Assembly (NCBI GenBank): GCA_050084515.1
Contig: CM114271.1
Coordinates: 29,016,001 to 29,080,000 of the forward strand
Direction of reading: 5' to 3'
Length of the DNA: 64,000 nt
Source of the DNA: Blasia pusilla
Lineage: Eukaryota
Every line of letters starts with the position of its first letter. Position 1 is the stretch's first letter. Shown piece by piece: positions 4,174 through 50,940 of the stretch. Both the position numbers and the translations under genes were made by a program. A model generated the notes under the pieces. It did no database searches, was not told the origin of the DNA, and saw only the letters and a program-made list of their open reading frames with translations.

Positions 4174-7049
<2,876 letters not shown>

Positions 7050-9609: not shown

Positions 9610-9978
9610 TGTCATGACCATACGGATTATGTCGTAGAGTATGGTGTGCTAGTAGAGGCCATTCCTTATGTAGGACCGTAGTGGATTGGTAGAGATGCGG
9701 TTCCATACATAGGGTTGGGGTTACTCGGTTGGGGTGACTTTCCCAAGAGGGGCCCGCTCTTAGGTTGGAGGATATAAGGTGGAGTGCACTCAAAGAACAG
9801 TCAGTTCTTTGAGTTGAGCCTCTTGCGTTGGGAGTTAGCCTTGGTAGTGAGTAGAGCTCTTGGCTATGGTGTTTCCCGCAAGCTTCGACCTAGATTCTCC
9901 CATCGTGGAGTGGGTTTGGCTCTCGATTATATGTGATTGTAAACGTGTTTTATGACAGTAGGTCTTTCACGGATTTCA
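9610..9978 (+). repeat. Terminal repeat A1 (369 bp), with a TATA-like GATATAAG at about 9771
   Basis: Near-identical to 19002-19370. Identity stops abruptly after GGATTTCA. No TGG-type tRNA PBS follows. Confidence 0.92.
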
Positions 9979-11689
9979 CTCAAAGAACTGGAGTAGATCG
10001 ATGGTAGCTTCGATTGTAGATCAGTAGGATCTGGTTAGGGCTGATTGTGTACTCAGCCGTGGATGTTCGGGGCTTGTTGCCTATGCTGGAGGTGTGAATC
10101 AGGTGCGTGGTTGGTTGGGAAAGAAGTGCCTTTTAGAGAGCTTTCCAACGCGCTGTAGATCGCCGGATTTCGTCAAGGGAGTTGGAAGTTATCAAGCATT
10201 GAAGATTCTGGTCGTGTTCGACAGTTTTCTGATGTGGAGAGCTTGGAGTGCGGAAGCTGTGTTGAAGTTCATCTAGATCGGGTGAGAGGTTCCTGTTGCT
10301 ACTCGTATTGTGATCTCCTGTGAATCTATCTGCTCGAGTGTGTGGAGCGTTGCGGATTTCTGCGTGCATGAAACTTGGCGGAAGCGCTGTCGGATTTGCG
10401 GTTCTAGAGGTGTATGGACAGCAAGTTTGTTTGATTTTTAGCTCGGAGTACAGAGCTCGGTTGTAGCTGATTTTTTGTGGAGAGATAGCTATGGTGGTCA
10501 ATTGAATTATGATCGAAACAGATTTGATTTCGGTCACGTATTTGTGAAATAATTTCTGATCGAAATTTCGCGGACTAGCTCGAGGTCTGGCTATGGTGGA
10601 CAGCGGATGGGAGGGGCTGGTTGGTTGGTGACTCGTTCATTTTTGGAGACGCCTATCCCGTTGGGGGCGCCCTGGTTGGACCTCTCTCCATAGCGAAGCA
10701 TGGCGAACGGGGCATGTCTCGAGCATTTCTCGAGGCCGAGGCCGAGGCGAGGCCGAGGCAACTCGTGGTAGCTCGGGGCGAGTGGGCGTGAGAGGCGGAG
10801 TAAGGAGCAAGCAAGCAAGCTTGCTTGCTTGGGCGTGAGGCAATTTTTGCAGGATTTGGGATTTGAGTTTTGCATAACTGGTCACCCATCTTTGGGCTAT
10901 TCTGCCTGGAGGACGCTTAACTGCCGAGTTCTTAACTATGCCAGTGTACAGACTGTTGTAGCTCATTTGGTGCTCTTCGGAGATGTGTTAGGCGCTTTAT
11001 GCATCTCAGGTTTTTGGTTGATGTACCTCTAGCGCATAGTACGGTGTAGCCTCTCCATGCAAGTGATATTTTCAGGTGCTGCGAGTTCGACTAGCACGTC
11101 ATCGACCCGCGGCGGAGTAGCTATTGCGTTAGAATTGTGTGGTGGGTTTTGTGGATTCAGGGGGCACCACGTTTGGTGGATTGTGTTACCTTGATTTCCA
11201 TTTGCGGTTGGAGGGTTGTCATTGGACTTCGTATGCGGATCCCCTCCATCGTGCTTCTTCTTGCTTGCGCCCATTGTTAGGGTTGACGCTGATTTCGAGT
11301 AGTGTTACTCTGTGTGCTACCGGTAGTGAGGGTGGAGTGATGACCGATGACCGTGGGAGGCTTCTTGTAGTGATGAGAGGTTAGATTGCCTACACCCATA
11401 GCTAGTAGAGCTACAATAGTAGAGCGACATCGACGTCACTTGGGTAATTTGGTGGTGGTGCGGCATCGGCGTTGGTCATCACAGAGATGTCGGGTGGTCT
11501 GGTTGGGGACCGTGGTGCGGACAGTGGTGGTTTCACACGGAGTGGATTTAGGTATCGGCTACCTTTTCCACTTCCGACGGTTGATTAAGAGGAGGACCAG
11601 GGTGTTCCAAACACCGAGTCTTCTACGTTCTTATCGAGTGTTGCAACTCCATTGATTTGGGACATGGACGGTGGATATGGGGCCATGAA

Positions 11690-14000
11690 GGGCCCACGAC
11701 GATACTCTAAAAATGGGCACCATTGAGTTGGAGGACTTCATGCAAGAGTTTGATACGTGGTGTGATATGCGGATGTTGGTGAACGCACGTTGTTTACACC
11801 CTTCTTGGCTTGGAAGGGGTTGTTTCAGCACTTGGAAGGACCACCCATGGATGATTACCATGAGTTTAGGAAGGACCATGTTGTTGAGATTGAGGCATGG
11901 AGACAATATTGGTCTCCAGGCTATGTGTCTATCACCCATGGTGGTATTGGTAGTAGTGCTCCTACTATGCCAGCCAGCCCGACGTTGAGTGGTACGAGCA
12001 CGAGCCGGGGGGGTACCGGTGGAGGTACTAGTGCCCCACCATCGTTCACCGGTTGCGAGAGTTCTTCAAGAGGTTGAAGAAGAACTATCGAGGAGTGAAG
12101 ACGGAGAAGTTGAGGAATCTTCAGGACTTTGAGCGAAAGACTCGGTGAGAGTCTTCGTGAGGCATACACTCGTATGCAACGCTTGATTTCGATTACCAGG
12201 GTGTGGCGAGGATCAGCGATCGATTTTGGTATGGGATCTTGACAGAGATTTGCGCCGTAGGGTGCGTGATGCTACTCTTATGAGTGATGATTCACCCACA
12301 TTGACCCATGTGTTTGCTTTATCTCAGAAGATTGAGCTTAACATGATGAAGGAGAGAGTGGTGACATCCGCATTCAAGAGGGGATACAACTACTACTTCT
12401 CGTGTTCGGCCGCCCACCTCACGATCTCGTAGTAGTGGTGGTGGTAGTAGTAGTGGGAGTCGTGGGGGTACACACGACCTCGTCAAGTCCTAGAGGGACA
12501 TTTGTGCAAAGACCATTGCCTTCATTTGCTGCCCCGCAGCAGGGCGATCATGTTGGACATGTGGAGGTGATCATGTTAGGAAGTTTTGTCCCCAAGAGGA
12601 TGGGAGACGGACTTTGGAGGATGGGCCTCAATCGGCCCCAACTCAGTGTGATCATTGCAGGAGACTAGGTCATCCACGAGAGCATTGCTTTGATCTTCAT
12701 CCAGAGTTGAGATCAGGCCGTGGCCGTGGTGGAGTAGCTCGAGAGGCCGAGGTGGTTGAGGTGGTAGGGGTGGTAGAGGTGGACCGGTGGTTGGAGAGCC
12801 TACGGTGGCTACCCCTACCCACTACTGACAGAGTCGACTATGGTCGCCATGATTGAGCAGATTGGGAGCGAAGTTGGCTACTATGGTGGTATCCGGGATA
12901 GATCGAGTTCGGGAGCAGGGCTTCCACCTCTTATGGAGGGATGATCTCTCTTATATGGCGAAAAGACAAAGTTGAGGCATCGGTGCGATTTAGAGGAGCC
13001 ACTCGAGCGTCGAGCCACGTGGTGCTCTTCAGGAGTTGGACCCACAGAGGGGTGAGGCCGAGGCAGGCTAGGCTTCCCAGTCATTCTTGTTGTCGAGGTG
13101 CTTAGGACTCCATCCATGGTTCCTCACGCAGCCTATTGAGCGGCAGTGGGGACCGAGGCATCTACATCGAGTGTAGTAGACACGGATGCAAAGCATCCAA
13201 TGCGATGTGCGGATGGCAACCCGGTGTTGGGATCCCCATTGTTTTCGCCACGAGTCGATGGCTTTAGGAGTTGACTTAGCTCTGTATTTCAGTAGCGACC
13301 ACGTTGTGTGAACGTGGAGGTGTTTCTTGCTACACGTGTTGAAGTGGATGAGGGTGTTGCGGTGGAGCGACCCTCTATGTCGGGAGTAGCATTGAGTACG
13401 GTGCTACTTGGCAAAAGCGGCGGCGAAGATGGATGCATTACCAGCCCGGCTAGCCATTGATCGTGAGAGGCTTACACCTGGTGTATGTATGTTGGACAAC
13501 CGGAGTGGGATCTTCCGATTGGTGAGTCCTACAGGACATGTGTATAGACCAGATAGAGTCTTGTTAGACTCTGGTGCCCAACCTTTGATGTTGGGAAAGG
13601 CGGCATGTATTGGTTTGGGTATTCGAAGGTCAGAGCTTGAGCCTTGCCCATTCTAGATTCAAACATCACTTGGAGGAGCCAATGATAGGTTATATATATC
13701 ATTATATTCGAACTCTACTCTGAAAATATTTCGATTAGATGTAAATGATTTCAAACTTGCCCCGCTTGACATCAAAGCAAGGGAGCTTTATCAAGAGGCA
13801 GTGAATGCCCTCAATTCATGACACGGGAGAAGTTTTCTGTACAGTTGAGACTAGATCATGCGACTGATAGCTCCCGGTTGGGAGTATCTGCGGTAGTCAC
13901 ATCAGCCGAGTCGTATGATGTACTAGTTGGAGGAGCAGTATTGTACCCGATGGGTTTTCAGATGGATTATCGGATCGGAGACAGCGTCTTCTGAGACCTG
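11690..14000 (+). pseudogene. Gag (zinc knuckles) and aspartic protease of the retrotransposon
   Basis: CWTCGGDH..C and CDHCRRLGHPREHC knuckles; VLLDSGAQP protease active site at about 13560; YDVLVGGAVL downstream. Multiple frameshifts and an AT-rich insertion at about 13690-13810. Confidence 0.75.
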
Positions 14001-14409
14001 GTTGGCAGTCCGGGGATGGACGTATGAGCCAAGTTCCTGTGAGATTTATTTCTGGGGCTCGACCAGGAGGGTCTTCCCCAACAGTGTTAGCATTTGTGGC
14101 TGGTTTTAGTGGAGTAGTCATTTGGCCCGGAGACTTTTTGGAGGGTAATGTTTCTGCTATGGATTCTCCTGCGCATGAGGAGGTAGAGGAGGTCCCTATT
14201 TTTGCAGCAGTGGCATCCTCATCGTTGGATGTGCCACTTTGGAGTTCAGGCGGTGCACTACCGCAGGAGGCTGATCGCCTAGTGCATGAGGCTTGGTGTG
14301 AGGCTGTTATACCTCACGAGGAAGAGGAGTCCCTACGGCGGACTCCTACTTTTGGTCCAGCTGGGTTATCCCCTTTGGATACTACACCCATTGTATGGCA
14401 GTATCCGCC

Positions 14410-15360
14410 GGAGGGTATTTGTGTGTTAGATCTCTTTGGTGGGATTAGCACTGGTTTGGATGCAGTGTTGCAGGCCGGTATTCCTCTGCGGAGATACGTG
14501 TATGTGGAGCGAGATGAGACGGCCCAGAGAGTCTCATCTCGACATATTGGTCAGTTGATGCGGAGATACCCAAAGTTGTTGCCGCCATCAGCTATTCGTG
14601 GATACCAGCGTGCTTTACCATCACACATTGCATTGTTGAGCGCGGGACCTTGAGAGGGTTGGTCCTGTGGATTTGGTGATTCTTTGGATGGCCATGTCGG
14701 TCATACACGTCTTTGGTCGTGGTGAGGGATTACATGACCCTAGGTCTCGATTGTTTTGGGAGATGTTACGGGTGTTACAACATCTTGAGTTCATCGAGCA
14801 CGTGCTCTAGCTTACATTCGGAGAATGTTCCATTGTTGGGTGACACTCGGACCCGGATGATGGCGAGTGTTCATGAGGTGCGGTCTTGGATTGGACGGTG
14901 GTGTTGGATGCGTGGCGAGTTGGCTCGCGTGCACATAAATCCACGCTTGTGGTGGACAAACTTGTTGCCTAGGGAGGTTCTCGTCGAGCATATGATGCAA
15001 AGGTAACGGGATCCTCGCCTTACGGTGGATAGTATCTTGATCTTTGGCGACTTTCTCAAGTGGTGAGGGTTATTGATCGGTCACCCATGGCGGTGGTGAA
15101 CCGTGTGGGGCGACCTAGGATGGCACTACCCACATTTGTGAGTTTTCCTCGTCACATGCCTCTGAGGAAGGTGGTCAGGGCTTGTATGGGATTCTCATGT
15201 GCGGCGGTTGGTGGAGCCTAACGCTGATGAGAGAGAGCGTGCGATGGGATTCGCTATTGGTGTGACAGCGGTTGCTTCTATTTTACGAGGCTTCACGACG
15301 TCATGTGTTGGGTCAGGCCATGGACCTGGAATTGTTTGACTTGGATTTTGAGTCTTGGTA
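14410..15360 (+). pseudogene. C5 cytosine DNA methyltransferase domain (DNMT3-like) embedded in the retrotransposon pol
   Basis: Motifs in canonical order across frames: I VLDLFGGIS, II YVERD, IV GWPC (about 14686), V GLHDPRSRLF, VI ENVP (14821), VIII PRLWWTNL, IX ERERAMGF, X RRHVLGQAM. Confidence 0.85.
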
Positions 15361-15769
15361 TGGCGGAGCAGCGTCGACTTCGGACTATGTCTGTGGGTCT
15401 TCCACCCTTGTAATGAGCTCGATGGCTACCGGGACGGTAGAGGCATCGGTCAGGCGAGGAGAGTAGTATTTTGCATCCTTGGAGTAAATGGGATGTAATG
15501 GTGGGCATGTGGAGTTGGTTGCTCATCTTTGGTGGCGGAGTTATTTGCTCGGATGATGGTGTAGCTAAGGGTGTACCATCTTGTGAGGGGGTTGCGAGCA
15601 GACCAATGGCATCGTCCTCTCCCTCTAGTGTGCGGTGGAGGAGGAGACTTGGGAGCTATTACTTGGGCCCAAGCTTACGGGAGGTGAGAAACGACGCTGA
15701 CACGCGGTTCCTACGTGCTTATAGGAGTTGTTTTGCCTTTAGCATGAAGGAGTTGGGTTCTCTGGTTGG

Positions 15770-17080
15770 ACCGGTGATATGGATTGATTTGGCTAGTGAT
15801 ACGCCAATCTTCCGTCGTCCCTACCGATATAGTGATATGGAGAGGGACTTGATTGAGTAGGGCGTTGGACCTTTTGGAGGCTGGATTAGTGGAGTTGTCG
15901 CATGGAGAGTATGCATCGCCACTTTGTCATGCTCGCTAAAAGGATATGCGTGGCAACTTCACGGATAGGCGGATGTGTGGAGATTACCGTCCTATCAATC
16001 GGCAAACCAAGGCCGATAGGTATGCCATGCCTACACACGAGAGATCTTTGATGTGGTGGGACAGGCAAAGATTTTCAGTACTTTGGATCTTCGGGCAGGA
16101 TACCATCAATTGCCGATTCGGGAGAGTGACAAGGCCAAGACAGCATTTTGGGGTGTCAACTCTCATGGCAAGGATTGTTTGTACCAATGGAAATTCTTAC
16201 CCTTTGGGTTGAAGAATGCACCTTCCGAGTTTCAAAGAGTGATGGACAGGATCCTAGCAGGGCTGGATTTTGTTCGGTGTTACATTGATGATATCTTGGT
16301 GTTCAATAACACGGTGGAGGAGCATCAGATACATTTGCAGATGGTGTTTGAGCGGTTGAAAGCTCATGGTCTACGTTTGCATCTAGGAAAGTGTAAGTTC
16401 TTCCATGAGGATGTTGAGTACTTGGGTCATGTGATCTATCCAGGTGGTTTGGGAGTTCAGCAAGCAAAGGTGGAGGCTATTGCACTTATTCCGCGTCCGG
16501 TAGATGTGAGTAGAGTTCGAGCATTCATGGGATTGGCGAACTACTATCAGAGGTATGTGAAGGGATTTAGTGCTATGGCAAAGCCTTTGAACCAATTGCT
16601 GAAATCAGATCAAGAGTGGCACTGGGAGATGATCGAGGAGAGAGCTTTTGTGGAGCTTAAGGCCTAGTTGGTGGCGGCGCCTATCTTGAGGAGACCTATC
16701 AGAGGGCGCCCATTTCAATTACACATTGATTGGAGTAGGTTGGGACTTGGAGCGGTGTTGACACAACATGATGATGAGCACATGGAGTTTGTGGTGGCCT
16801 ATGCAAGTCGTTCGAATAATGCAAATGAGTCGCGCTATAGTTCATATGAGGGAGATTGCTTGGCGAGAGTGTGGTGTGGCACACTTTAGGTGTTACTTGT
16901 TTGGCACACAGTTTACCCTTGTTCTGATCACCGGCCGCTCAAGTGGTTGATGGAGTCGGACAAGCTTACAGGGAAGCTTGCACGGTGGGCTCTTATCTTA
17001 CGGGAGTATGACTTCCAGGTTGTACATAGACCTGGAGTTGCCAACCTTGATCTTTGATGGGTTGAGTAGGAACCCATGTA
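15770..17080 (+). pseudogene. Reverse transcriptase and RNase H (Ty3/Gypsy type)
   Basis: RMCGDYRPIN, LDLRAGYHQ, KTAF, LPFGLKNAPSEFQ, YIDDIL, YLGH, VVAYASR. Confidence 0.92.
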
Positions 17081-17439
17081 CTAGCCAAGAGGATACAACG
17101 GGGCTAGATGGCATGGCGAGGTTGATGAGGAGATGGTGCCAGGTTGGCATGCATCCGCCTTTTTATGTTGGTTAGGGGTGGACTCTAGTATGGAGGACCA
17201 CATGATATCTTACTCTAGTCAGAGGGTAGATGGCCAGCCTTCAGATCCTAAGGTTGGAGATGGTGGTACGGATCAGCGTGATATTCATGATGATGCGTTG
17301 GTGTTGGAGTTCCTTCGGACCGGTAGGGTGCCAAGCATAGTGAGTGCCAAGGAGCGAGACCGTGTTCTTCAACGTGCTAAGAGGTATCGATTGGAGGGAA
17401 CACATATTCTCCGCGTGTGGGAGGATGGTAGAGTATGAG

Positions 17440-18720
17440 TAGTGCCACATTTGGCTCAGAGAGAGCGCATTGTGCGACATGCCCATGAGGAGTTGGGACA
17501 TTTTGGGATAAAGCGTACGTATAGCTTACTCCTTGGCCAGTATTGGTGGCGTGGCATGCATACTCAGGTGCAGCAGTTGGTGTCACGTTGTATGGTTTGT
17601 GACCGGGTGAGGGCATCATTTAATGCCCCTACACCACAATTACACCCCTTGCCTATTATGGGGTTGGGTTACCGTTGGAGTGTGGACTTTGCGGGACCGT
17701 TACCGTTGACTGTACGACATCATCGATATGTGTTGGTGATGGTGGAGCACTTCTCCAAGTGGATTGAGTTGGTGGCATTACCGGACAAGGCAAGTGAGGG
17801 AACGGCGTATGCATTTCTGGATAGAGTGCTTAGTCATTTTGGTGCACCAGCTGAAATCTTGACCGACCGAGTCTGAGTTTGGGTGAGTTTCAGGTCTTAT
17901 GTGACAAGGCGTTGATTGATCATCGGACCACGTCTCGAGATCATCCAGAGGCGGATGGTTTGGCTGAGCGTGTGGTTCGAGGCGGTGAAGAGGGCATTGC
18001 GCAAGTATGGCCTCTGAAGGGCATCTTGAGACAGGATATTCGGTTGCCATGGTTAGCCATGGGGTATAGGTTCGATCGCCAAGCATCCTTGGCTTCCTTC
18101 TCACCTTATTTTTACATTATCGGCCGAGATCCAAACTTGCCATCAGCAATTCGTCGAGTCTAGTGAGGTGGTGAACCTTGATGACCCGAGAGATGTGGAT
18201 GAGGGTGTGTTCTCGCGAGCGGAGCTCTTTCGGAGAGTTATGCCAATGACCTTTGAGAATCTTGCCATTGCTCAACACAGGGATACGTTGCGGTATGCAA
18301 CCATTCGGGGTGGAGGTTATCGACCATCGATTCGTAGGTTCCATGTGGGGGACTATGTCTATTTGCAGCAGATTGCCCCGACAACGTTGGATGTGACGGC
18401 AGCCGCACTATTTTACGAAGTGCGTGAGGTGTTAGCTTCCGGAGTTCTCATGTTGGAGGGTCGTGATGGAGTTGTTTGGAAGGACCATGTGCGTAATTGT
18501 GCGCCATGTCATCTTCCAAATGTGGATGGTACTGTTGACCCAAGCTTAGCCATGATACGTGCTAGCTTGAGGTGCATGTTGTGTGGGTCTGCTTGTAACG
18601 CAGCCTGACCCCGTATGTTGGTGTGTGATCGGTGTTCTAGGGGTTGGCACATGATGTGTTTGACTCCACGTTTGGATGTTGTTCCTCTTTGGAAGGTGGG
18701 TTTGTCCTCGATGTACTTAG
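17440..18720 (+). pseudogene. DDE integrase with C-terminal PHD finger
   Basis: HAHEELGHFG..CMVC zinc-binding domain; WSVDFAGP, EILTD, ADGLAER core; C-terminal CMLC..CDRC..WHMMC PHD at about 18570-18716. No tyrosine-recombinase ORF was seen. Confidence 0.9.
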
Positions 18721-18893
18721 GAGAGGTAGATGACTTGATCTTTGCATGATATGGATTACTGGATGTGCGACTAACGATGGGGCAACCTAGCACCCGGCCT
18801 TCGATTCGAGCACCCAAGAAGGTGTATAGCATGTAGTAGATGTATAGGGCTACCTGGGAGTTAGAGGACCTAACCGCTTGATTAGGGGGTCGA

Positions 18894-19476
18894 GTTGTGG
18901 TACACTTGCGTTTGTGGATACTCTCGTCTATGTTATGTATGTATGTGCGTATGGTATGTCAGCGATGTATGTTGTATGACGATGTGGATTCGCACGACAG
19001 TTGTCATGACCATACGGGATTATGTCGTAGAGTATGGTGTGCTAGTAGAGGCCATTCCTTATGTAGGACCGTAGTGGATTGGTAGAGATGCGGTTCCATA
19101 CATAGGGTTGGGGGTTACTCAGTTGGGGGTGACTTTCCCAGTAGGGCCCGCTCTTAGGTTGGAGGATATAAGGTGGAGTGCACTCAAAGAACAGTCAGTT
19201 CTTTGAGTTGAGCCTCTTGTGTTGGGAGTTAGCCTTGGTAGTGAGTAGAGCTCTTGGCTATGGTGTTTCCCGCAAGCTTCGACCTAGATTCTCCCATCGT
19301 GAAGTGGGTTTGGCTCGATTGTATGTGATTGTAAACGTGTTTTATGACACTAGGTCTTTCACGGATTTCAGTTGTGGTACACTTGCGTTTGTGGATACTC
19401 TCGTCTATGTTATGTATGTATATGCGTATGGTATGTCAGCGATGTATGTTGTATGACGATGTGGATTCGCACGACA
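18894..19476 (+). repeat. 3' terminal block: B1 (18894-18999), GT, A2 (19002-19370), B2 (19371-19476)
   Basis: B1 and B2 are 106-bp near-identical direct repeats. Junction reads CACGACA-GT-TGTCATG. Confidence 0.92.
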
Positions 19477-22148: not shown

Positions 22149-22210
22149 TGTCGTGCTCCTACACATCGCTACACAATGTACATCGCCGTCACTAATCAAC
22201 ACACACAACT
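22149..22210 (-). repeat. Isolated fragment of a B-type terminus of the split-repeat retrotransposons
   Basis: Reverse complement reads GTGACGGCGATGTACATTGTGTAGCGATGTGTAGGAGCACGACA, resembling the B ends at 2883 and 29560. Confidence 0.55.
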
Positions 22211-22680: not shown

Positions 22681-23921
22681 AGGGGTTGTGAACAAACCTA
22701 AGAACGTGATTTTTTTGGATAAATGATGAGTTTTTTTCCGTGAATGGGTACACAACTAAGAAAGTATGAGAGTGTAGCAATAGATAGATAGTGATTGAGC
22801 TGGTACCTGGTGTAGTGAATATTTATTTCACACCAACCCAAATAAATACCCATGGTGGCAAACAGAAGACGTGCATATGAGTTATAACTATTCTTGCATA
22901 ACTCCAATCCATTTAACCTTACATGCAGCTTCTTCAAAATACCTCGGTTCCTATTCTTGAAGGACATTCATCATATATGCATGATGTGTTGTAGGAAATG
23001 CTTCATCTATGAATCTATGAATAGTATGTGTGACTCTTCTTAATCTAGAAAGTTGTTTTTCATAAGTGGATGTCTTTGACATCTAACTTGAGCTCTAACT
23101 AGTGATAGCAAACTAAATACGTACTCTTCTTAACTATGGATTGATAGATTTAACTGAGGAGTCTATGACCTCTGCTCACCTTGCGCTAGTACTTGGGACT
23201 ATATAGGCAATATATCTTGGTTTATAGTCATATTCCTCCCCCCCTTTCCTCAACAAATATTTTTAGAGGTGGAATAGGTTTTAGATGGGGCATAATATGA
23301 CTTAAATTCATAAAAATAACTTTGCAAATAAAATTAAGTGGCTTAGAGGATGAAATATAACACTTATATTCCTTATTTGTTATGAACATAGCCAATGAAG
23401 CTGCATGTCTCAAATTTAGGATCTAATTTCGTACCTCTTTAAAAAGGAAGATAAGCATAAAAAGTGAACCAAAGACTTTCAAGAATGCAAAATCAGGTTT
23501 ATTTCTTGTGGAGACTTTGGATAGAGCCTTATTAGTTTGAATTTCGTTGATTAAGGAGACTACTTAGCTTTTAGAAAGTATACTCATATATATCTAGAGA
23601 AGTCATTAATAAATGAAACAAAATATAAAAAACCATTAATGATAGATTGTGAGGATGTCCACATATGATTGTGAAGCACTATTGCAAGATCTTTTATAGG
23701 TTCCATACTACTAAATCATTTAGCTTGTGAGGTTATATGTTTTGACACACCAAAGTTGATGTATTATTCTTTTGTATAATTTTTCTTGGCCATTGCTCCC
23801 ATATGATGAGTTAAGATCAAGAGATGCTTAGTTTGTGAGTCTTGTTGTTCTTAATATTGCACTTAATGTTGTTGTTCCATAAAGTTTTCTTGTTGTAAGA
23901 CTATTGCTCTCATGTTTGCCT

Positions 23922-26128
23922 TGTCACATCTTATTTCGACGTAGGTAGAGTTCTATCGCGTCGACGGCATAGGGAGTCATCGGGCTGTTCCGATGTAACT
24001 TTGTCCCGAGATGTCGGATGAGGTTGGCGACAGGTGTGTTATGTCAGGAACGTCGTTTATGGCGATTTTCCTATTTTGGTTTTAGTCTGTCAGGTGAACC
24101 GTTGACCGAGTCAACGGTCATCCGGTAACTTATGCACGTAGGTTATCGTTGGTACGGCTATTTTTGGGGAAAGAGCCTTTTGGCTCTTCCCAAGGGTATA
24201 AGAGTGAGGAAGATGGCTTTCTCAAGCCATCTTTCTCATGTTGAGCCTTAGGAGCGCCTCTCTTGCATAGACGTGTGTGGGTGTGTAGGAGTTAGGGTGC
24301 TAGTGTCCGGATTCCCTCATGGTAGAGGATGGATGTGGTTTGATATGCCGATGTAGATTCATGAGTGGATTTTTAGGCCGGGTGAGCCATTTTTACTACT
24401 CTTGAGTACTCTAGGAGGAGACGGCTTCTTATAAGCCAGGGTGGCGATCATGGACATGTGAGCCATCTACGAGTGTTGTTTGCACGGAGTAGTGGTGGTT
24501 GACCACGTGAGGATACGGTGACAATGCTGGCAGCATTCACAAGTACATGCGGAGGACATTCATGTAGCGGATAGTCCCACGGAGAGATATGTCAGGGTGG
24601 GTGTCTCTTCCCATGGTGCAGAGCTTCGTTATTGTTGTTGGGGATGAGCGTGGAGTGCAGACAAGCTTGTGAGGCAAGCGTGGAGCCGTGTCTATGTTTG
24701 GAGGAGGGTACGAGAGTGTTAGATCTCTTTGAAGGGATCAACACAGTTTTGTGTGTAACAGTGTTGCGGAGATGACGGCACTGATGGTGCTAGATATATA
24801 TAGGATAGGAGATCATGTCGGGGACATATGTGTGTGCTATCTGGAGTTAGGGGGACCCAACTGCCAACTAGGGGGGTGGTTGTGGGATCCCTTTCATGGT
24901 TGCAAAAAAATGAACAAGTCCTTCCTTAGGACGGACAAGTCCATGGACATGGGTTCCATGAGGTGGGACCCACACTTGTACTCCATGATGGAAGGTGAGG
25001 CAAGGATGAGTGGATTAATAAGGGAGGAGGTAGTGGAGTTAGAGGGAGGAAGAAACTGGGGATTATGGAACACGAAGGCAAGTAAGGGGACGGAGAAAGA
25101 AGGGAAATGTGGAGCCCATATGGACAAGTCCTTCCATAGGATGGACATAAGTCCACGAACACAAACTTTTTCCATATGCGATCTTGGTCCCTTTGTATAT
25201 GCGACGTACACAAGTTACCGGGCGATCGTTGACTTGGTCAATGGTTCATGTGCCAAACTAAAACTAACATAGGAAAATGGCCATAAACGACATTCCCGAC
25301 ACAATAGACATATCGCCAACCTCATCTGGTATCTCGGAATAAAGTTACACCCAAACAACCCGCTAACTCTCTATGTCGTCAACGTGATAGAACTCTACCT
25401 ACGTCAAAATAAGATGGCCCAGACCTGAGAGTAGCTAGTGTGACGTCAGCCTCCACATCTTACCACGATGCTAGTTTATGTGTGGATCTACCCGTATGTT
25501 GGGAAAGATTGGTGTTGTGTGGTGTGTAGATGTGACAAGTGATGTGGGTTTTGTAGCGATATGTATGCGCACAATAATTTTCATATCTTATTTTGAGGTA
25601 GGTAGAGTTCTATCGCGTCGTCGATGGCATAGAGAGTTAGTAAGTTGTTTGGGTGTAACTTCTTCTCGAGATGTCGGATGAGGTTGATGACAGTTATGTT
25701 GTGTCGGAAACGTTGTTTATGGAAAATTCCCTATTTTGGTTTTAGTCCGGTAACCTGATCACGCAGGTTACCGTTGGTAGGGCTATTTTTGGGGAAAGAG
25801 CAAGGAAGATAGCTTTCCCAAGCCATCTTTCTCATGTTGAGCCTTAGGAGCGCCTCTCTTGCATAGACCTGTGTGGGCGTGTAGGAGATAGGATGTTAGC
25901 ATCCGGATTCCCTCATAGTGGAGGGTGGATGTGGTTCGATATGCCGATGTAGATTCATGAGTGGAGTTTTAAGTCAAGTGAGCCATTTTTACTACTCTTG
26001 ATTTTGTTGTGGGGTCTCGATGTATATGCGTAATTTTATTTTGTTTATGTGTGGATCTACGCGTACGTTGGGGTAGATTAATGTTGTGTGATGTGTAGAT
26101 ATGACTAGCGATGTGTATGCGGATGACA
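23922..26128 (+). mobile_element. Non-autonomous split-repeat retroelement: A1 23922-24405; B1 about 24889-25576 (interrupted); A2 25579-26001; B2 26002-26128
   Basis: Starts TGTCACATC, ends GATGACA. TSD GCCT/ACCT; removing 4 bp restores the Copia zinc-knuckle sequence seen uninterrupted at about 55430-55480. No pol motifs inside. Confidence 0.8.
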
Positions 26129-27539
26129 ACCTACTTCTTGAAGTAAAATTTGCATAGTGACCCTTCATCCCATAGAAATTGCAAGATCCAAGGATCTTTT
26201 GTTATTCATCTCAACCAAATAATTTCCACCATCACCAACTTACCATTATGTTTAGGACTGATTCATAGTTGGCTAATTGAAGTGATATTGAGTGTATATG
26301 CCTCCATATCCTTGATATCCACCACACACGGAAGGTTCTACCACTATCTCTACCTTTGTTTGATCCGTGAAAAGCAAATAGAGCACTCTCTTGCGTAAAA
26401 GGTGAGCTATTGCTACTTACTAGATGCATCTCCTCTCTAATTAATGATGAAACTAACTCTTAGAAGGTTGGATATTTATCTCTTACGAAGATAGAGGTAT
26501 CAAAAAACTTGTAATCTTTTGGAAGACCTTGACGAGTGAACAAAATCATATCATCATCTTCTACAATCGCTCCAATGGTATTCAATGATCAATAATATGT
26601 ATGATACTCAAAACATAGTTAGTGATGTTTTGCGATCATTTTCTCACTTCGTTCAATTTTTATTTCAATTGAAGCTTTCTAGCCTTTGTAGGTGTCTTGA
26701 ACAGCTTCTCCTATGCGTCCAACCCCTCCAAAATATCAACATCTTACATCTGAAAGATTCTTGGCAGATTGATCATTATTGAGATGAAGTGGATTACTTG
26801 CCTTGCGTGTTTGTTCTAGGAATGAACATTCAAGTTTGTTGAACCATCTTTCAGTTTGGCTCCATCACTTGTAATAAACTCCCTTAATTCTTGATCCATG
26901 AGAAATTATTTCATGCAAAACTTCCACACATTATATTTCTCCTTAATATATAACTTCTTGCATGTGATTGTTGTTGAGAAATACTCCGTCAAGAACGATT
27001 TTACTTATAAATGATAATTTCATGCTCTACACCACTGCAATTGAAGCATAGATCACTCCTACGCATAAATTGATCTGAAATTTAGAAAAATTAACCTAAT
27101 ATATGAAAGAACTAGTTGAAATTGGATTGTAGAGAGAAAATTGCATAACTTTCCTTCATTAATTGTACTTTCCTACGTTGAAATTGCTATTGCAGAAGTT
27201 CACATTATCATAATCGAATAATTTTGGATGCTTTGGAAAGCTCTTAATAAGCTTTAAAAGACGTTTAGAACACGCCTTTGGAAATTTTAAATCCATTGCA
27301 GACCTAGATTTCGAAATTCATAAAGAAAATCCGAAAAGTCGCCTCTCAAGTTTTGTTACTTCTCAACTCCGTTGAAATCTTCTACGATTGAGCTTCGAAG
27401 GAAGTTTTCTTGCCCTTAACTAAAATTTTTCCTTCTCTTGCTTCTCTTTTCTTCTCATACATCAAGAATTTTAATGGATGTTCTCATATTGCTCTAATAC
27501 AATATAGAAAAGCATTAAACAAGCATAAGTGATGAAATA

Positions 27540-27693
<154 letters not shown>

Positions 27694-27949
27694 CATCATG
27701 GAGAATAAAAATTTACAATTAGAGAGTAAGTGGGGGCTGATGCCTTCCTCAATATATAACTAAAGTTATACCAATTATGGTTAACTAACCCTAGTTAAAA
27801 TAATCGCACTTACCTAACTGACAAATATTAAACTTTCCTTCTTTGTGTAAGTACCAAATGGAGTATTTTGTGTGTTTGATAAGGTTGACTATAACTCAAT
27901 TTTTAGTATTGCATATACCCTCCTCAAAACCTCGTGTGGAACCAAGTTG

Positions 27950-30900
27950 ATCCATCACAACCGCGGACAATATGCTAGTGAATCCACATTCGATGCATCC
28001 AAAAACAGCGTTGACTCCTCACAATAAACCAAGGTGAATCCCGTTGGGTACAATGTTGCTCCACTAACTAAGATATGATACGTTTTGGCATCGACTACTA
28101 TGAACTCATTTGTCAGATGTCTTGGTTGAATCTTCAACACGACCTTATGTTGGGTTATAAACTACGTTGTACTCACTCCACCAAGGAGGTATGGATCCTA
28201 AATGGGCAACGCTCCACATTGGTCTTTGTCACATCCAATCCAGTAAATACCACCTTACCCAACATCAAGGGTTGCGCTCTTAAATCCAATAAGACATATT
28301 GTAGAAAAAACACTCTACAACCTAGACTAAAAAAAATGGAAGATCTCTCCACGGTTATGTAGCAAAACAATACTCGACGACACCTTTGGAAAACTCTATC
28401 ATTGGCGTAGCGAGCATCTTTGCCATTCTAGCAATTGTAACTTGCCATGACTTTGAGGTGGACATTTCGAGTATAGGCTCTAAGGGAGCTTCCACCACCT
28501 CCTCTACAACTGCCTCTGAATACGAGGCAATAACACCATCTCCATCCTTTCATAACAGATCGGCCGACCTGAACATCTTAGTGGGCAAATGTCTCAATAT
28601 CACAACATTGGAAGCCAAAACCACAAGATACTATAAATGATAGTGGTTGCCCTGAAAATAATACTCAACATGAGCTCTTCTTAAGCATTAGCAATAGGAG
28701 TCTTTGCACTTGCTTCTCCCATTGCTTGTCGTGCTTACACATGAACGACACTCGACTTGCGAGAACTCTAATTAAGACCCGTCAATGGAATTCTCATCAC
28801 CTCGAAGATTGTAAAGGACTAAGAAAGCTTCGTCTATTTCCTAGCCTCCCCCATATGTGGATCCAACTTCACGACTGTTTCACGTGGAATGACATCGAAA
28901 ACCTCGATCTATATAGCCCTGCATATCCTCCTTTTCACATCTTATTTCGACGTAGGTAGAGTTCTATCGCATCGACGGCATAGAGATTCACCGGGTTGTT
29001 CTGGTGTAACTTCGTCCCGAGATGTCGGATGAAGTTGGCGATAGGTGTGTTGAGTCGGGAACCTCGTTTATGGCGATTTTCCTATTTTGGTTTTAGTCTG
29101 TCAGGTGAACCGTTGACAGAGTCAACGGTCATCCGATAACCTATGCACGTAGGTTACGGTTGGTAGGGCTATTTTTGGGAGAAGAGCCTTTTGGCTCTTC
29201 CCAAGGGTATAAGAGTGAGGAAGATGGCTTTCCCAAGCCATCTTTCTCATGTTGAGCCTTAGGAGCGCCTCTCTTGCATAGACGTGTGTGGGTGTGTAGG
29301 AGTTAGGGTGCTAGTGTCCGGATTCCCTCATAGTAGAGGGTGGATGTGGTTTGATATGCCGATGTAGATTCATGAGTGAAGTTTTAGGCTGGGTGAGTCA
29401 TTTTTACTACTCTTGATTATTGTTATGGGATCCTAGTGTATATACGTGAGTATGTTCATTTATGTGTGGATCTACCCGTATGTTGGGGGAGATCGGAGTC
29501 GTGTGGTGTGTAGATGTGACCAGCGATGTGGGTTGTGTAGCAATATGTATGCGCACGACATCCTAGATATCCTTGTGCATATCCAACCAAGATCCTCCAT
29601 TTCCTTGGGTGCTCCATATGAGGTCGATGCCACCAAGGTTGCACATGGACAAAGTCCGTTGTCGTGTCGAGAATCTTTCTTCGAGCAAGGGCGGGCCTTC
29701 TAGCTGCGGTAGATGCGGTCGATGCAAGGTGAACTCTCTAATAAGTTCTCCTTTTTCAATACAAAATTATGATGTACACTCTCCATTCTCTCACGACAGG
29801 TATCACAAATGGAAGTGCCGAGGCGATAACTTCTTCGTAACATCGGATCCCGAAATTCCTGACTATAAAATCCCTATAAACTATTTTACGTTTGTACACG
29901 AGAAAGATAGCACAACTAGTGTTAAACCCTACTTGATCAGGCCTATTGACATCCATGGATCGCTATATAAGGACATACAAAGTACAATCCCATGTCCTTC
30001 CATATGTGACGATAGGAAGAATCACCGAAGTTGGAGATTGCATGACCTGGTTCATGAACGCCTCCCCAAAGTGATAAACTAAATAGCGAGTGAACCAGTG
30101 CCTATCTACAAAGAGTACCTTGACATGGTAAGGATTGAGAAAGGAAAGTCGGGCATAGCTCGTGCTCCACCCCTATCCATGCTTGACAGACATTCTCTAC
30201 TCTCCTCAAGAATGGGTTTGGCGGAGTTATTCTCCCAAGGGGTAATCCACTCTCATTGGGAAAGTAACAAGCCAAAACATCCGCTATTTTAGTATGACTA
30301 AACTCCTCTCGGTGACAAACCTCTCATCCCCCCACACACACACACCACACTCTAGAAACCTCTCGAAGAATAGACCATGATCAAGTTACTCTCCCAAGAG
30401 GGGTGATCCACTCTCATTGGAAGAACAAGCAATCCCAAAGCCATACACTCAAGAGAGACACTAGAGACTCAAGATGTGGAATAGAAGGTGATGAACCCTT
30501 GAAGGTCCCTCCTCTTTATATACTCACAAGGGATCCACAAGAGTACGAAATAGAGCTTATCTTATCTTGTGCCACATGGCTTCCTCTCAAGGCTTAGCCA
30601 ATCACATTTTGACACAAGTAGATTTCCTCTTATCTCTTCAAAAATATCCTCTTTTACCCACATGATATTTTCCAAATTACCCCAACTAACCTAGCCACCA
30701 ACCAAGACTACTTTTACTTTTCATTAAAGCAACTACTTTACTTTTATAAAGTCATCTTTTATTTATTACCTCATTTTCTTAAAGTTGGGCCCGCATAAAA
30801 GAGACACCATAAAGAGGTTTAAACATAAGAATCTCCCTTTTCTAAGCCAATTTACTTAATACTAATGAAACTCTATCTAACACTTAATGACGAAGGAGTT

Positions 30901-33526: not shown

Positions 33527-36500
33527 ATGGATGGTGTGAAGCTACCCAAACATCCTGACCTCTCGTATACTGATGACGATTTTCCAGACTTGAGCAGACA
33601 ACATTTTCCTCTGGATGACAATGGATTTTTTGGTTCTAGTCGCAAAGACCAAAACTATGGATCTTATGAACGAAGGCCATCATCACTAGAGTCATCGGCT
33701 GCTTTCGAGTTATGGCGAGCCTCCACGTCCAAGAATGATCCCTGTCTCGAAGGGTTCAGCTTGGAAGAAGGTAAGATGACGCCGGGTTTAGTGGGCGTCA
33801 AAATAGCCGCCGAGATGGATACTCGATCCAGAAATGATGATTATTGTCGCAATAGCCGCCACCATAATCGAAATAGCCGCCGTTTTAGATTATTCGTTTC
33901 CTGAGAGGTGATCCTACTCAGAATAGCCGGAAAAATATCCGCCGTTGTAGTTATTTTGATTTCCTGAGATCTAAGCCTCCTCACACTATAGCCGCCGAAT
34001 TAGCTTCCGTGGTAGTTTTGTAGTTTTCCTTAGAGGGTCGCCTTCTCAAAATAGCGTCCGAATTAGCCGCCGTTGTAGTATTTTTGTTGTCTTGAGAGTT
34101 GAGCCTAGTCATAAGAGTGGTCGACTTAGCCGCATTTGTAATTGATTTCCTTTCTTGAGAGCTTAGCCTACTGAGAATAACCACCGAAATAGCCGCCGTT
34201 GTTGTTGTTTTGTTTTCATGAGAGGCGAGCCAACTCAGAATAGCCGCTAAGTCACCGAATTAGCCACCGTTGAAGATGTCTAACTTTCCCTAGAGGTGAG
34301 CCAACTCTGAATAGCCGCCGAATTATCCGCCGTTGTAGTTGTTTTGGTTTCGGGAGATATTGGGCTACTTAGAGTAGCCTCCGAAATAGCCGCCGTTGTA
34401 GTAATTTTGTTCTCTTCAAAGGTGAGGCTACTCAGAGTATCCTCCGTTGTAGTTGTTCGTACTCTTGATAGGTGAGCCTACTCAAAGTAGTTGCCGTTGC
34501 AGTAAGAGGTGATAGTACTCAGAATAGCTGCCTAAATAGCAGCCATTGCAGTTGTTTTGTACTCCTGAAAGGTCAGCCTACTCTGAATAGCCGCCGTTGC
34601 AATTGTTTTGTACTTCTTAGAGGTTAGCCTACTCACAATAGCCGCCGTAGTGGATATTTGGATGACATAATGTAAGTTTTCATTTACGATTTGTATCGGC
34701 GTGGCGTAGTCATCAGCCGCTGTGAAAGTTAGATTCATTAACAACCCTGGGTCATCATGTGCAGTAAGGAGGCATGCCGAGCGGATACAATTGAAGCAAG
34801 TGTTCCACAGCTTCGATGAGTTTGAGTTTTCACTAGATTGTTGGTGCTCGCTGAATTATAGAGCAAAGCATTGCGCACGCAACAAGAAATGGTATCGGCT
34901 TAGAATATGTAGATTTGGCGCAAAGATCAGAGGCAAAGGCCTTCCTATTTTCAATGAGAACAAACCCTCTAGCGGTTCGAAGACTTCAAGAAATGGACCG
35001 TATCCTAAGAGGGAGGATACTCTTGTGAAGAAATGTAGTTTTGTATGCCATGGTATTAACAACATGTCCGACACCGTAGGATTGGAGGAAAATATTCAGG
35101 AATATTCAACGGTTGCTAATCACAGTGGAAAAAAGTCGCACGATGTTAGGGAGAGGTCGGCGAACAATAGCACGGCGGTTTATGTCAACGAAGTTGCAGT
35201 TAATGTGTGTGGATCCTCTGTTGGAGATATTGGGGGACATAGTGTAGAATTTCAAGACCCACGTATCTCGAGGCTTGCATGTGGAATGGGGGTCCCGTGG
35301 AGACCTCAACATAGTAAGAGGCCTAACCAGCCAATTTTCAAGAATTCTTTCTCAGAACCTAGCGTAAGCTTAGACGTTCCCACGGAGAAAAGGAGAAAGA
35401 GTGGTGAAGCGAGAGTCCCCACCGCCAGGAATGGGGCATGTGGTCAATTTGCTAGGTACATACTTTCAAGGAAGGAGAATGGTACATCATGTAAAGATGA
35501 AGTTTGCGAGTGGAGGGTCCGTTGCCAACGGCATAAAAGTACATGCCTATGTGAGATAACGGTGTGTAATTTGAAACACACTTGCATTCACGGGCACATT
35601 CATACATGGAGGGGTCCTACCCACAAGGCAAAGTGGTTATCAATGGTATTAGCAGATAGGGTTGTAAACCAACCAAGCATCCTTGTAGGTAGCCTTGTAG
35701 AAGTCCTTGCGCAGACGTACAAGAAGCGAACAACTTACTTTCCTGCATGGAGATGCAAAGAAATATATCGGGATTGGATGAATAGAGGTGAACGAGTAGG
35801 TTTCCATTTGATTCCTTCTTTCATACAGGCAGTAAAGGAAGCCGACCCCTTTGCCACCTCCGCTTGGGATGTTTGGAATTTAGAATCTGCCATCGTCAAG
35901 AGGCTATTTATTTGTCCATCTGCCATGAAGAACATCATTCCTTATGTGCAAAAGGTAGTTGGCTTGGATGCATGCCATACAAAGAATAGGAAGTATCCCA
36001 TGCAGATTTTCATTGCGTCCATGTTGGATGGAAATGCCAATACGATAATTTTGGCATTTGGCATATCTCCTCTGGAGAACAATGAGGAATGGGAATGGTT
36101 TTGTGCACATCTGAAGAAAGCCATCCCAGCTTTAGATGATCCCAGAATTGTTATTGTTTCAAATAGACAAAAGAGCCTTTTACACGCCGTGCGTATAATA
36201 ATCCCCCAAAATATACATAGCATGTGTGGCCAACATTTGAGACAAAATGTTCGAACACGGTATGGAAAAGTTGTCGAAGGATTTTTCATTGCCCGCCTTT
36301 ACGCCATGACCTGGGAGAAGTAAGCAAACTATCCATTTCATTCTTCCTTACATTTTGCATATGGGAGTCTTGCATATTCAGTGAGGTGGAATATTGCATA
36401 GGCTGCGACTATTTTGGACTGCTCTTCTCTATAGGACGGCGGCTATTCACAGTAAAGACGATTGCTATTCCCTAAAGGACAATGGATAGTCACTGTTAGG

Positions 36501-38159: not shown

Positions 38160-38444
38160 ACTCAAATGGAATTGTCATATGTAGCCCATTTGTTTCTTGG
38201 TATGCAAAATTATGATATTTGTTCATGTTGGAATGCAAAGTATGTTCTCAATGACGTATTAATGTTCATAAACCAAATGGACCAAACCATTCCCGGTTCA
38301 AGAACAAACAGGCTTGGAGTGACGCCTATTCTCCATGACTGCTAATCACAGGCCGAGAGCTAAATCACCAAACGCCTTTCCTCGCTCTTTCTGAGGCTTT
38401 TTTTTGTTTAACTCCCTTCCCTCCCTCTCCTCACTTCTCCGATC

Positions 38445-47723: not shown

Positions 47724-50940
<3,217 letters not shown>

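What the first reader, a model, noticed from the sequence alone, without database searches (positions are those of the whole stretch)
23922..29560. Non-autonomous derivative and solo A-B repeat follow the same split-repeat rules
Seen: a third family (A about 480 bp) forms a 2.2-kb element without pol motifs: A1 (23922-24405)...B1-AT-A2-B2 (to 26128). A lone A-B unit sits at 28933-29560 with a TCCT TSD. Inference: A1 x A2 recombination of a split-repeat element should leave exactly A-B between TSDs. A short non-coding version points to a trans-mobilised (TRIM/LARD-like) class and delimits the cis requirements.
Basis: partly seen in the sequence, partly recalled or inferred. Interest (0 to 1): 0.7.

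Follow-up and report, generated by a model that had tools for sequence, protein, structure and literature searches.

The report
Deleted copy and solo of split-repeat Gypsy
A decayed, gene-less copy and a lone repeat unit of a plant Gypsy retrotransposon lineage whose chromosomal copies carry their terminal repeats in a split, circularly permuted order yet are inserted by an ordinary integrase.

Summary
23922-26128 is one insertion, shown by a paralogous empty site (target duplication GCCT/ACCT), laid out A1-internal-B1-AT-A2-B2. 28933-29560 is a lone A-B unit between perfect TCCT duplications.

Corrections:
- B1 is split by a 583-bp insertion that holds an inverted piece of A.
- The true internal region is about 470 bp (24406-24876). 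It ends in a G-run (polypurine tract) and holds a fragment of a methyltransferase coding region.
- The unit is therefore an old, internally deleted copy, not shown to be a TRIM/LARD-like class.
- A1 is closer to the solo (93.8%) than to its own A2 (86.9%).

The split-repeat rule is real and general. The window's complete 9.9-kb element has it. So do 16 of 29 evaluable related metagenome loci, with no conventional LTR pair among the 29. Genomic reads show A-to-B, B-NN-A and G-run-to-B joints.

These elements encode RT, RNase H, a DDE integrase, a PHD finger and a DNMT, and make 4-bp target duplications. The B|A junction is a palindrome (consensus GACA-GC-TGTC).

My reading, by inference, is that the chromosomal copy is a two-LTR circle opened by integrase at that palindrome. 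A 2018 figure legend already notes DIRS-like repeats in the Klebsormidium relatives, so this is a new member of a known kind.

The parts
23918..23921 (+). left target-site duplication GCCT of the 2.2-kb unit
   Evidence: An empty-site paralog (reverse strand about 55465-55480) has a single GCCT.
23922..24405 (+). A1 (484 bp). It starts TGTCAC. TATA is at 24197. A 9-10-bp hairpin lies at 24210-24233. A1 ends ..CTCTTGA.
   Evidence: It is 93.8% identical to the solo A.
24406..24876 (+). True internal region (about 470 bp). It holds a leader, a fragment of the DNMT motif-I coding region (24703-24767), and a conserved tract (24836-24876) that ends in the G-run AGGGGGG (24870-24876), read as the polypurine tract.
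   Evidence: 24703-24767 is about 77% identical to 14410-14471, and 24836-24882 about 81% to 2094-2140; frame 1 reads ..VLDLFEGI.. against element 2's ..VLDLFGGI..; loose ends at 24615, 24738, 24836 and 24876.
24880..24891 (+). B1, first about 12 bases (TTGTGGGATCC..)
   Evidence: joints run from 24889-24894 to 25474-25500; it aligns with the solo at 29420.
24892..25474 (+). 583-bp insertion inside B1 that replaces about 25 bases. It holds a 42-bp direct repeat (24910-24949 / 25120-25161) and an inverted partial A (25197-25416).
   Evidence: the inverted piece may extend about 25 bp into the left flank (1 of 500 shuffles reach the score).
25475..25576 (+). B1, 3' part, ending AATA (decayed GACA)
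   Evidence: the read consensus behind 25572 is GACA + 2 letters + TGTCACATCT.
25577..25578 (+). AT dinucleotide between B1 and A2 (family consensus GC)
25579..26001 (+). A2, with two internal deletions, one of which removes the TATA box
   Evidence: It is 86.9% identical to A1.
26004..26128 (+). B2, ending GACA, with a 17-bp deletion
26129..26132 (+). right target-site duplication ACCT (one transition from GCCT)
28929..28932 (+). left TCCT duplication of the solo
28933..29560 (+). Solo A-B unit: A 28933-29416, three bases TTA, B 29420-29560 ending GACA.
29561..29564 (+). right TCCT duplication of the solo
9610..19476 (+). Complete autonomous-type relative (element 2), used as the reference for the architecture. 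A1 9610-9978. Leader from 9979. G-run at about 18885. B1 18893-18999, then GT, A2 19002-19370, B2 19370-19476. CCCC lies on both sides.

Best explanation
Both features belong to the streptophyte Ty3/gypsy lineage that carries a DNMT and a PHD finger. Its chromosomal copies are laid out A1 - leader..internal..G-run - B1 - NN - A2 - B2.

Shown:
- The unit that reverse transcription would treat as its LTR is B-NN-A. A polypurine-type G-run sits immediately before B1.
- A holds a TATA box.
- The first 8-13 bases after A1 are the reverse complement of the stretch 20-30 bases downstream of the TATA. This pairing co-varies between families. It is the layout of a Tf1-type self-primer.
- The ends used for insertion, TGTCA.. 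and ..GACA, lie back to back inside that LTR as a palindrome (consensus GACA-GC-TGTC).
- Insertions make 4-bp duplications, as a DDE integrase does.

Inferred:
- The cDNA ends (end of A, start of B) are joined, as in a two-LTR circle.
- The integrase then opens one of the two palindromes. The inserted copy is thus a circular permutation of the cDNA and keeps one intact palindrome (B1-NN-A2).

The 2.2-kb unit is an old copy of such an element. It lost nearly all of its interior, later took a 583-bp insertion in B1, and is decayed (A1-A2 87%).

The solo most simply arose by A1 x A2 recombination within a full copy.

The confidence of 0.7 is for the identity and anatomy. The circle-and-palindrome step alone I put at about 0.35-0.4.
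For: The unit is one insertion with a 4-bp duplication. The solo has TCCT on both sides.

The same order is seen in element 2, where A1-A2 match at 353/367 aligned bases and B1-B2 at 106/107, with CCCC on both sides and the junction CA-GT-TG. It is also seen at the 3' end of element 1.

Protein domains: RVT_1, RT_RNaseH, Integrase_H2C2 + rve, and PHD. None of the 56 plus-strand ORFs of element 2 hits a tyrosine recombinase.

Relatives: liverwort proteins at 84% and 79% identity, then charophyte proteins, with PF00145 + rve + PHD. The DNMT homology is confirmed.

Metagenome loci:
- 16 of 29 evaluable loci (14 distinct) have a B1..B2 pair just after pol.
- 6 of 6 with a detectable A1 have A2 between B1 and B2.
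- 0 of 29 have a conventional LTR pair.
- The junction dinucleotides are GC x4, GT x3, AC x3, AT x2, TA x1 and unclear x1.
- A G-run precedes B1.
- Perfect 4-bp duplications are found in 4 of 5 evaluable loci.

Leader and post-TATA complementarity: 12 nt in element 2, 10 in L020, 13 in L025, 8 in L021 and 8 in L049.

Reads (X9 / X10, which may be one data set):
- A-end to B: 113 / 107.
- G-run to B: 72 / 92.
- B-end to A: 30 / 39.
- 623 / 670 loose ends behind 25572 have the consensus GACA + GC or AC + TGTCACATCT, with agreement about 0.5.

The interior holds a coding fragment.
Against: - A1 is nearer to the solo (93.8%) than to its own A2 (86.9%). Repeats that were identical at insertion and decayed equally should not show this. 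It needs gene conversion, unequal decay or a chimeric origin.
- 13 of the 29 loci show no repeats at my thresholds.
- One locus (L021) has only 2 of 4 duplication bases matching.
- The leader/post-TATA complementarity is absent at 8 nt or more in family 3, L004 and L034.
- No circle, transcript start or poly(A) site was observed. The circle-and-palindrome step is inference.
- Read laying shows only the 15 best joints. 137 more were not shown, so G-run-to-A joints cannot be excluded.
Confidence: 0.7

Rival explanations
1. The 2.2-kb unit represents a TRIM/LARD-like class of short non-coding elements that autonomous partners mobilise in trans, and it delimits what is needed in cis.
For: It keeps A1, a leader, the G-run, B1-NN-A2-B2 and a target duplication. 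The leader bin 24428-24518 has depth about 108 against less than 7 in the least repeated flank bin. So the leader is multi-copy.
Against: The interior contains a coding-region fragment. At 24615, 24738 and 24836 the listed loose ends (572, 594 and 697 reads) go on or begin as one other dominant sequence, with agreement 0.90-0.94. Only 26 of 12677 reads are at least 99% alike. B1 is broken, A2 lacks TATA, and A1-A2 identity is 87%.
Confidence: 0.15
2. The solo A-B was not made by recombination. It was inserted directly. If integrase cuts both palindromes of a two-LTR circle, the small fragment released is exactly A-B, with integrase-ready TG..CA ends.
For: This follows from the inferred circle model. 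The solo has intact ends and a perfect 4-bp duplication. Reads give more A-to-B joints than G-run-to-B joints (113 against 72 in X9).
Against: There is no direct evidence. A1 x A2 recombination gives the same product and is the established origin of solo LTRs. The read ratio is biased by how joints are detected.
Confidence: 0.2
3. Ordinary LTR retrotransposons with A-B LTRs, rearranged in this window by nested insertions or deletions so that they only look split.
For: The solo A-B looks like a normal solo LTR with TG..CA ends. The 2.2-kb copy is visibly rearranged.
Against: The same order is found in three families here and in 16 metagenome loci. The G-run always abuts B and not A. The self-primer site abuts A and not B. 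No conventional LTR pair was found among 29 loci.
Confidence: 0.03
4. A DIRS-order (PAT/Ngaro-type) tyrosine-recombinase retroelement, the group for which split direct repeats are known.
For: The repeat order is identical: A1..B1A2B2. The passages of PMC5890265 that I read give A-coding-B-A-B as typical of DIRS. TOC1 is a non-autonomous DIRS element (PMC9940879, passage).
Against: The relatives encode rve integrases and no tyrosine recombinase: 0 of 56 ORFs in element 2 and 0 of 47 in L020, L025 and L049. There are 4-bp target duplications and TG..CA ends.
Confidence: 0.03

Closest known systems
KnitGypsy-Dnmt3 / streptophyte Gypsy-DNMT3 retrotransposons (de Mendoza et al. 2018, PMC5890265; passages and the Fig. 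4 legend read)
   Same: Both have a Gypsy pol with an inserted DNMT. [quoted passage not shown] The RT of the window's element 2 finds Klebsormidium proteins at 48-49% identity, and relatives with PF00145 + rve + PHD.
   Different: The copies here come from a genome whose closest proteins are liverwort proteins. The passages I read do not mention the palindromic junction, the 4-bp duplications, the G-run before B1, the self-primer site, solos or deleted derivatives. I did not open that paper's supplements.
DIRS-order elements with split direct repeats (PAT, Ngaro, TOC1/TOC3)
   Same: The order A1-internal-B1-A2-B2. The logic that joining B2 to A1 recreates the internal B-A unit. The existence of non-autonomous members (TOC1).
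   Different: Those elements use a tyrosine recombinase and leave no target duplication (recalled). Here there is a DDE integrase, TG..CA ends and 4-bp duplications.
Tf1/sushi/Tcn1 chromoviruses (self-priming Ty3/gypsy; Neumann et al. 2019, PMC6317226, passages read)
   Same: There is no tRNA-type primer site. A site next to U5 is complementary to the predicted 5' end of the transcript.
   Different: Those elements have ordinary LTRs and a chromodomain. Here the repeats are split and there is a PHD finger. The phylogenetic relation was not tested.
Solo LTRs, and TRIM/LARD non-autonomous LTR elements
   Same: The solo is flanked by a duplication. The short copy is non-coding and keeps its terminal repeats and polypurine tract.
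   Different: The repeats are split and not paired. The short copy is a decayed deletion derivative and is not shown to be a propagating family.

Membership tests
Ty3/gypsy, DNMT+PHD (Gypsy-DNMT3) lineage | pol order RT - RNase H - DDE integrase (H2C2 + rve) | tested here: met
   Elements 1 and 2 meet it. The 2.2-kb unit has no ORF hits (0 of 11). It is linked to the lineage only by cis sequences.
Ty3/gypsy, DNMT+PHD (Gypsy-DNMT3) lineage | C5-DNA methyltransferase domain within pol | tested here: met
   Pfam and NCBIfam find nothing in element 2's decayed ORF. The PDB match is weak (E 0.037 to a plant DNA methyltransferase). But the ORF aligns with PF00145-bearing relatives at E 5e-23 and 2e-8. 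Family 3 keeps a 65-bp fragment of this region.
Ty3/gypsy, DNMT+PHD (Gypsy-DNMT3) lineage | DIRS-like split repeats A1..B1-A2-B2 | tested here: met
   for the window. 16 of 29 metagenome loci.
Ty3/gypsy, DNMT+PHD (Gypsy-DNMT3) lineage | Sequence relation of family 3 to coding members | tested here: met
   The B end is 83% identical to element 1's B. The tract before the G-run is 81% identical over 47 bp to element 1, and the DNMT fragment 77% over 65 bp to element 2. These are short stretches, so the link is moderate.
DIRS order | tyrosine recombinase; no target-site duplication | tested here: not met
   No PF00589 hit in any ORF scanned. 4-bp duplications are present.
TRIM/LARD | two complete LTRs around a non-coding interior with primer site and polypurine tract | tested here: not met
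   The repeats are split. The interior holds a coding remnant.
TRIM/LARD | many copies sharing the same short structure | tested here: inconclusive
   the listed loose ends at the three internal breakpoints carry one dominant other sequence, and the table does not give how many reads cross them as in this copy. 26 of 12677 reads are at least 99% alike. No whole genome is held.
Solo LTR-type remnant | single repeat unit flanked by the target duplication | tested here: met
   TCCT on both sides of 28933-29560.
Tf1-type self-priming elements | The site next to U5 is complementary to the transcript's 5' end | tested here: inconclusive
   Co-varying complementarity of 8-13 nt in 5 of 8 elements, 20-30 nt after the TATA. 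The transcript start was not measured. Family 3 shows only a 9-of-10 pairing, judged by eye.

The most novel reading that the evidence does not exclude
This Gypsy lineage has moved its integrase recognition ends from the outer edges of the LTR to a back-to-back palindrome inside U3. Its obligatory integration substrate would then be the end-joined (two-LTR circle) form of the cDNA, opened by a DDE integrase at the palindrome. That is the circle-junction route once proposed for retroviruses and later set aside (recalled), and it converges on the DIRS/PAT layout. Solo A-B units and A-internal-B units could then be direct integration products as well as recombination products.
Probability: 0.35. 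Interest if true: 0.8.

Novelty: new member of a known kind. Interest (0 to 1): 0.5.

Why it matters
Standard LTR finders expect two matching terminal repeats. They will mis-annotate or miss this lineage, its solos and its deleted copies. This matters for repeat annotation and insertion dating in bryophyte and charophyte genomes.

Mechanistically, the lineage offers a natural test of whether a DDE integrase can use a palindromic junction on a joined cDNA as its substrate. It also asks why a split-repeat layout arose independently of tyrosine recombinases.

The two features examined here add little on their own. They show that the usual after-lives of LTR elements, internal deletion and solo formation, also occur under the split-repeat layout.

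Tried and rejected
I used one read-laying run instead.
- The search of earlier findings by place, sequence and words gave nothing relevant.
- Pfam and NCBIfam see no domain in element 2's DNMT-like ORF. The PDB search gave only E 0.037. The identity rests.
- A degenerate junction motif found 3 window sites against 1.8 expected by chance. The third site, 29789-29805, is probably chance.
- Protein-level comparison of the interior gave only the DNMT fragment and the G-run tract. The other hits had E above 0.3.
- 13 of the 29 evaluable metagenome loci showed no repeat pair. L043 has one 82-bp long-range pair that I could not classify.
- L004's B2 is cut short, so its duplication cannot be read. 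L021's duplication matches at only 2 of 4 bases.
- No leader/post-TATA complement of 8 nt or more was found in family 3, L004 (only a 9-mer at leader +21, probably chance) or L034's expected place.
- The idea that the inverted A piece was copied from this very locus rests on about 25 flank bases (1 of 500 shuffles). It is tentative.
- Literature searches for split repeats together with an integrase, a Gypsy element, a target duplication or a palindromic circle junction found no description beyond the 2018 legend. Subscription journals and that paper's supplements were not seen.
- I rejected a tandem pair of solo LTRs with a chance insertion. The insert starts with the family leader and ends with the family G-run tract.
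- I rejected an assembly artefact, because the same joints occur in raw reads and in unrelated contigs.
Full report
**What is there**

The window is plant-like nuclear DNA. It holds two HSP70 genes with introns, a MULE transposase and several retroelements.

- A1 is 23922-24405 (484 bp), A2 is 25579-26001, and the solo A is 28933-29416.
- The B copies end at 25576, 26128 and 29560.
- The junction between B1 and A2 is a decayed ..GACA-NN-TGTCAC.. with NN = AT.
- None of the 11 ORFs of 24406-25470 hits Pfam.

**The unit is one insertion**

The DNA flanking the 2.2-kb unit is itself a repeat, with a second copy on the reverse strand near 55147-55601. That copy lacks the unit and reads ..TCTGCCT|TCTTCTTGAAG...

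So 23922-26128 went in as one piece. Its 4-bp target duplication is GCCT on the left and ACCT on the right, one transition apart. The solo has TCCT on both sides.

**Corrections to the anatomy**

I laid raw genomic reads on 23700-26400 at 85% likeness. The runs were X9 and X10, about 2 Gb each. They are of equal size and may be one data set. Two contig sets, X1 and X2, were laid as well.

87% of the laid reads run on into unlike sequence. The region is therefore a mosaic of short stretches shared with larger families.

Three things follow.
1. B starts right after a G-run (AGGGGGG, 24870-24876), at 24880. Reads from other copies join 24889-24894 directly to 25474-25500 (66 reads in X9, 86 in X10). 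The roughly 25 letters between match the solo's B. A further 6 reads in each run join 24878 to the start of B2, which gives the G-run-to-B totals of 72 and 92 used below. In this copy B1 is therefore broken by a 583-bp insertion, 24892-25474. That insertion holds an inverted partial A (25197-25416, about 82%).
2. The real interior is only 24406-24876. Its last 41 bases match the tract before the G-run of element 1 (81%). Before 24836, 697 loose-end reads carry element-1-type sequence.
3. 24703-24767 is a fragment of the DNMT motif-I coding region of element 2 (77% nucleotide identity..VLDLFEGI.. against ..VLDLFGGI..).

The unit is an internally deleted copy of a coding element. At 24615, 24738 and 24836 the listed loose ends (572, 594 and 697 reads in X9) continue or begin as one dominant other sequence, with agreement 0.90-0.94. 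The table does not say how many reads run on as in this copy. Only 26 of 12677 laid reads are at least 99% alike, so I see no recent burst of this exact copy.

**An awkward fact**

A1 is 93.8% identical to the solo but only 86.9% to its own A2. A2 is 86.9% to the solo. B1-B2 is 83%.

If A1 and A2 were identical at insertion, A2 has changed about three times as much as A1. Otherwise A1 was converted by another copy, or the copy was chimeric from the start. I cannot tell which. In element 2 the pairs behave as expected, with A at 353/367 aligned bases and B at 106/107.

**The split-repeat rule is general**

Element 2 (9610-19476) is complete. Its layout is A1 9610-9978, B1 18893-18999, then GT, A2 19002-19370 and B2 19370-19476, with CCCC on both sides. 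Element 1 is cut by the window start and shows the same 3' end, B1-GT-A2-B2.

Both elements encode RVT_1, RT_RNaseH, Integrase_H2C2 + rve and a PHD finger. None of the 56 plus-strand ORFs of element 2 hits a tyrosine recombinase.

The RT finds liverwort proteins at 84% and 79% identity, then charophyte proteins. Many of these relatives also carry PF00145, rve and PHD. Element 2's decayed ORF 13919-14650 aligns with the DNMT part of two such relatives (E 5e-23 and 2e-8).

An alignment of 14 relatives pulled 75 loci out of metagenome contigs. 29 of these reach the C-terminus of pol and have at least 700 bp downstream.
- 16 of the 29 (14 distinct, since L030 = L032 and L033 = L034) have a B1..B2 pair starting within about 300 bp of the end of pol. 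The spacing is 450-630 bp, and 1317 bp in one case.
- In all 6 loci where an upstream A1 is detectable, A2 lies between B1 and B2.
- No locus shows a conventional LTR pair.
- 13 show nothing at my thresholds.

**Conserved cis features**

- A G-run lies directly before B1 in most loci.
- The B1|A2 junction is CA-NN-TG. NN is GC x4, GT x3, AC x3, AT x2, TA x1 and unclear x1 among the 14 distinct loci.
- The read consensus behind 25572 is GACA + GC or AC + TGTCACATCT, from 623 and 670 reads with agreement about 0.5.
- GACAGCTGTC is a perfect palindrome. GT, AC and AT are what C-to-T decay of CAGCTG on either strand would give. Transitions make up about three quarters of the A-copy differences here.
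- Perfect 4-bp duplications flank A1 and B2 in L020, L025, L034 and L049. L021 matches at 2 of 4 bases.
- The first bases after A1 are the reverse complement of a stretch 20-30 bases downstream of the TATA in A. This pairing co-varies between families: 12 nt in element 2, 10 in L020, 13 in L025, 8 in L021 and 8 in L049. There is none of 8 nt or more in family 3, L004 or L034.

**Reads and the refuting condition**

Joints in X9 / X10:
- end of A to B: 113 / 107;
- G-run to B: 72 / 92;
- end of B back to A: 30 / 39.

A-to-B excludes a plain B-NN-A LTR element. G-run-to-B and B-NN-A exclude a plain A-B LTR element. Together they fit the split layout. Only the 15 best joints were listed and 137 were not shown.

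**How it most likely works**

Shown:
- For reverse transcription the LTR is B-NN-A. The polypurine tract lies before B, the promoter lies in A, and the primer site lies after A.
- The insertion ends are the start of A and the end of B.
- Duplications are 4 bp.

Inferred from the established scheme of LTR reverse transcription:
- The cDNA would be B-NN-A..internal..B-NN-A.
- To obtain A..internal..B-NN-A-B, the end of A must be joined to the start of B, and one palindrome must be opened.
- Nicks after each CA of CA-GC-TG leave recessed CA-3'OH ends with 2-nt overhangs. That is the form integrases use.
- The joining may come before insertion, as a two-LTR circle, or after it. The two are the same topologically.

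This is the logic proposed for PAT/Ngaro elements (recalled), carried out by a DDE integrase. I give this step about 0.35-0.4.

Under it a solo A-B can arise by A1 x A2 recombination, or directly if both palindromes are cut.

**What is known**

- Split direct repeats are the mark of DIRS-order elements. The passages of PMC5890265 that I read give A-coding-B-A-B as typical of DIRS. PMC9940879 (passage) calls TOC1 a non-autonomous DIRS element.
- The Fig. [quoted passage not shown] The layout is therefore in print for this lineage.
- A 2026 preprint (10.64898/2026.05.21.726589, passages read) names streptophyte Gypsy-DNMT3 but says nothing on the repeats in the passages I read.
- Neumann et al. 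2019 (PMC6317226, passages read) report 4- or 5-bp duplications by lineage and predict self-priming for Tcn1. They have no PHD-bearing clade.
- My searches found no account of the palindrome, the duplications, the primer and tract positions, solos or deleted copies. I did not open supplements, and subscription journals are not covered.

**Verdict**

The split-repeat reading and the solo logic are supported. The TRIM/LARD-like reading is not.

The two features are ordinary after-lives of an unusual element type that has already been noticed. The interest lies in the lineage's integration mechanism, which these data make testable.

Noticed in passing
window 9610-19476: A complete 9.9-kb split-repeat Gypsy element with CCCC duplications. 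Its ORFs are decayed: RT, RNase H, integrase, PHD and a DNMT remnant at about 14400-14700. Ten bases at 9789-9798 (CTCAAAGAAC) recur at 9979-9988, right after A1. They pair with 9804-9813, just after the TATA.
   Followed up: yes
window 1-3152: Element 1 is cut by the window start and ends at 2883 (B2). It sits inside the PHD-finger region of an older related copy: 2894-3152 is 84% identical to 1760-2021. This is a nested insertion of like into like.
   Followed up: partly
window 22149-22209 (minus strand): A lone B-end fragment of about 65 bp, ending ..CACGACA, with no A next to it. It is 84% identical to element 1's B. Its inner boundary is undefined, so no duplication can be read.
   Followed up: partly
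window 23782-23902, 26130-27896 and 55147-55601, 58398-59734 (reverse): The DNA around the 2.2-kb unit belongs to another dispersed repeat, 75-82% identical to a reverse-strand copy 30 kb away. Read depth shows it is multi-copy in the genome.
   Followed up: partly
window 4072-7057 and 47583-50947: Two HSP70 gene copies with introns, about 79-84% identical at nucleotide level, in the same orientation and 43.6 kb apart.
   Followed up: no
window 34710-38159: A MULE transposase ORF (537 aa) followed by a 472-aa ORF with no family hit. 18-bp-period tandem repeats lie at 38442-39229.
   Followed up: no
window 53991-54486: A near-perfect inverted repeat with 239-nt arms (91%) and an 18-nt loop, in AT-rich DNA. 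Its nature is unknown.
   Followed up: no
window 27543-27669: A perfect 6-bp-period microsatellite of about 127 bp.
   Followed up: no
L003-L049 (metagenome loci): Related elements in metagenome contigs share a very conserved start of B (ATACATGAGAATTTCATC) and end of B (..CACGTCACGACA) across loci whose A parts differ. This suggests selection on the B ends.
   Followed up: partly
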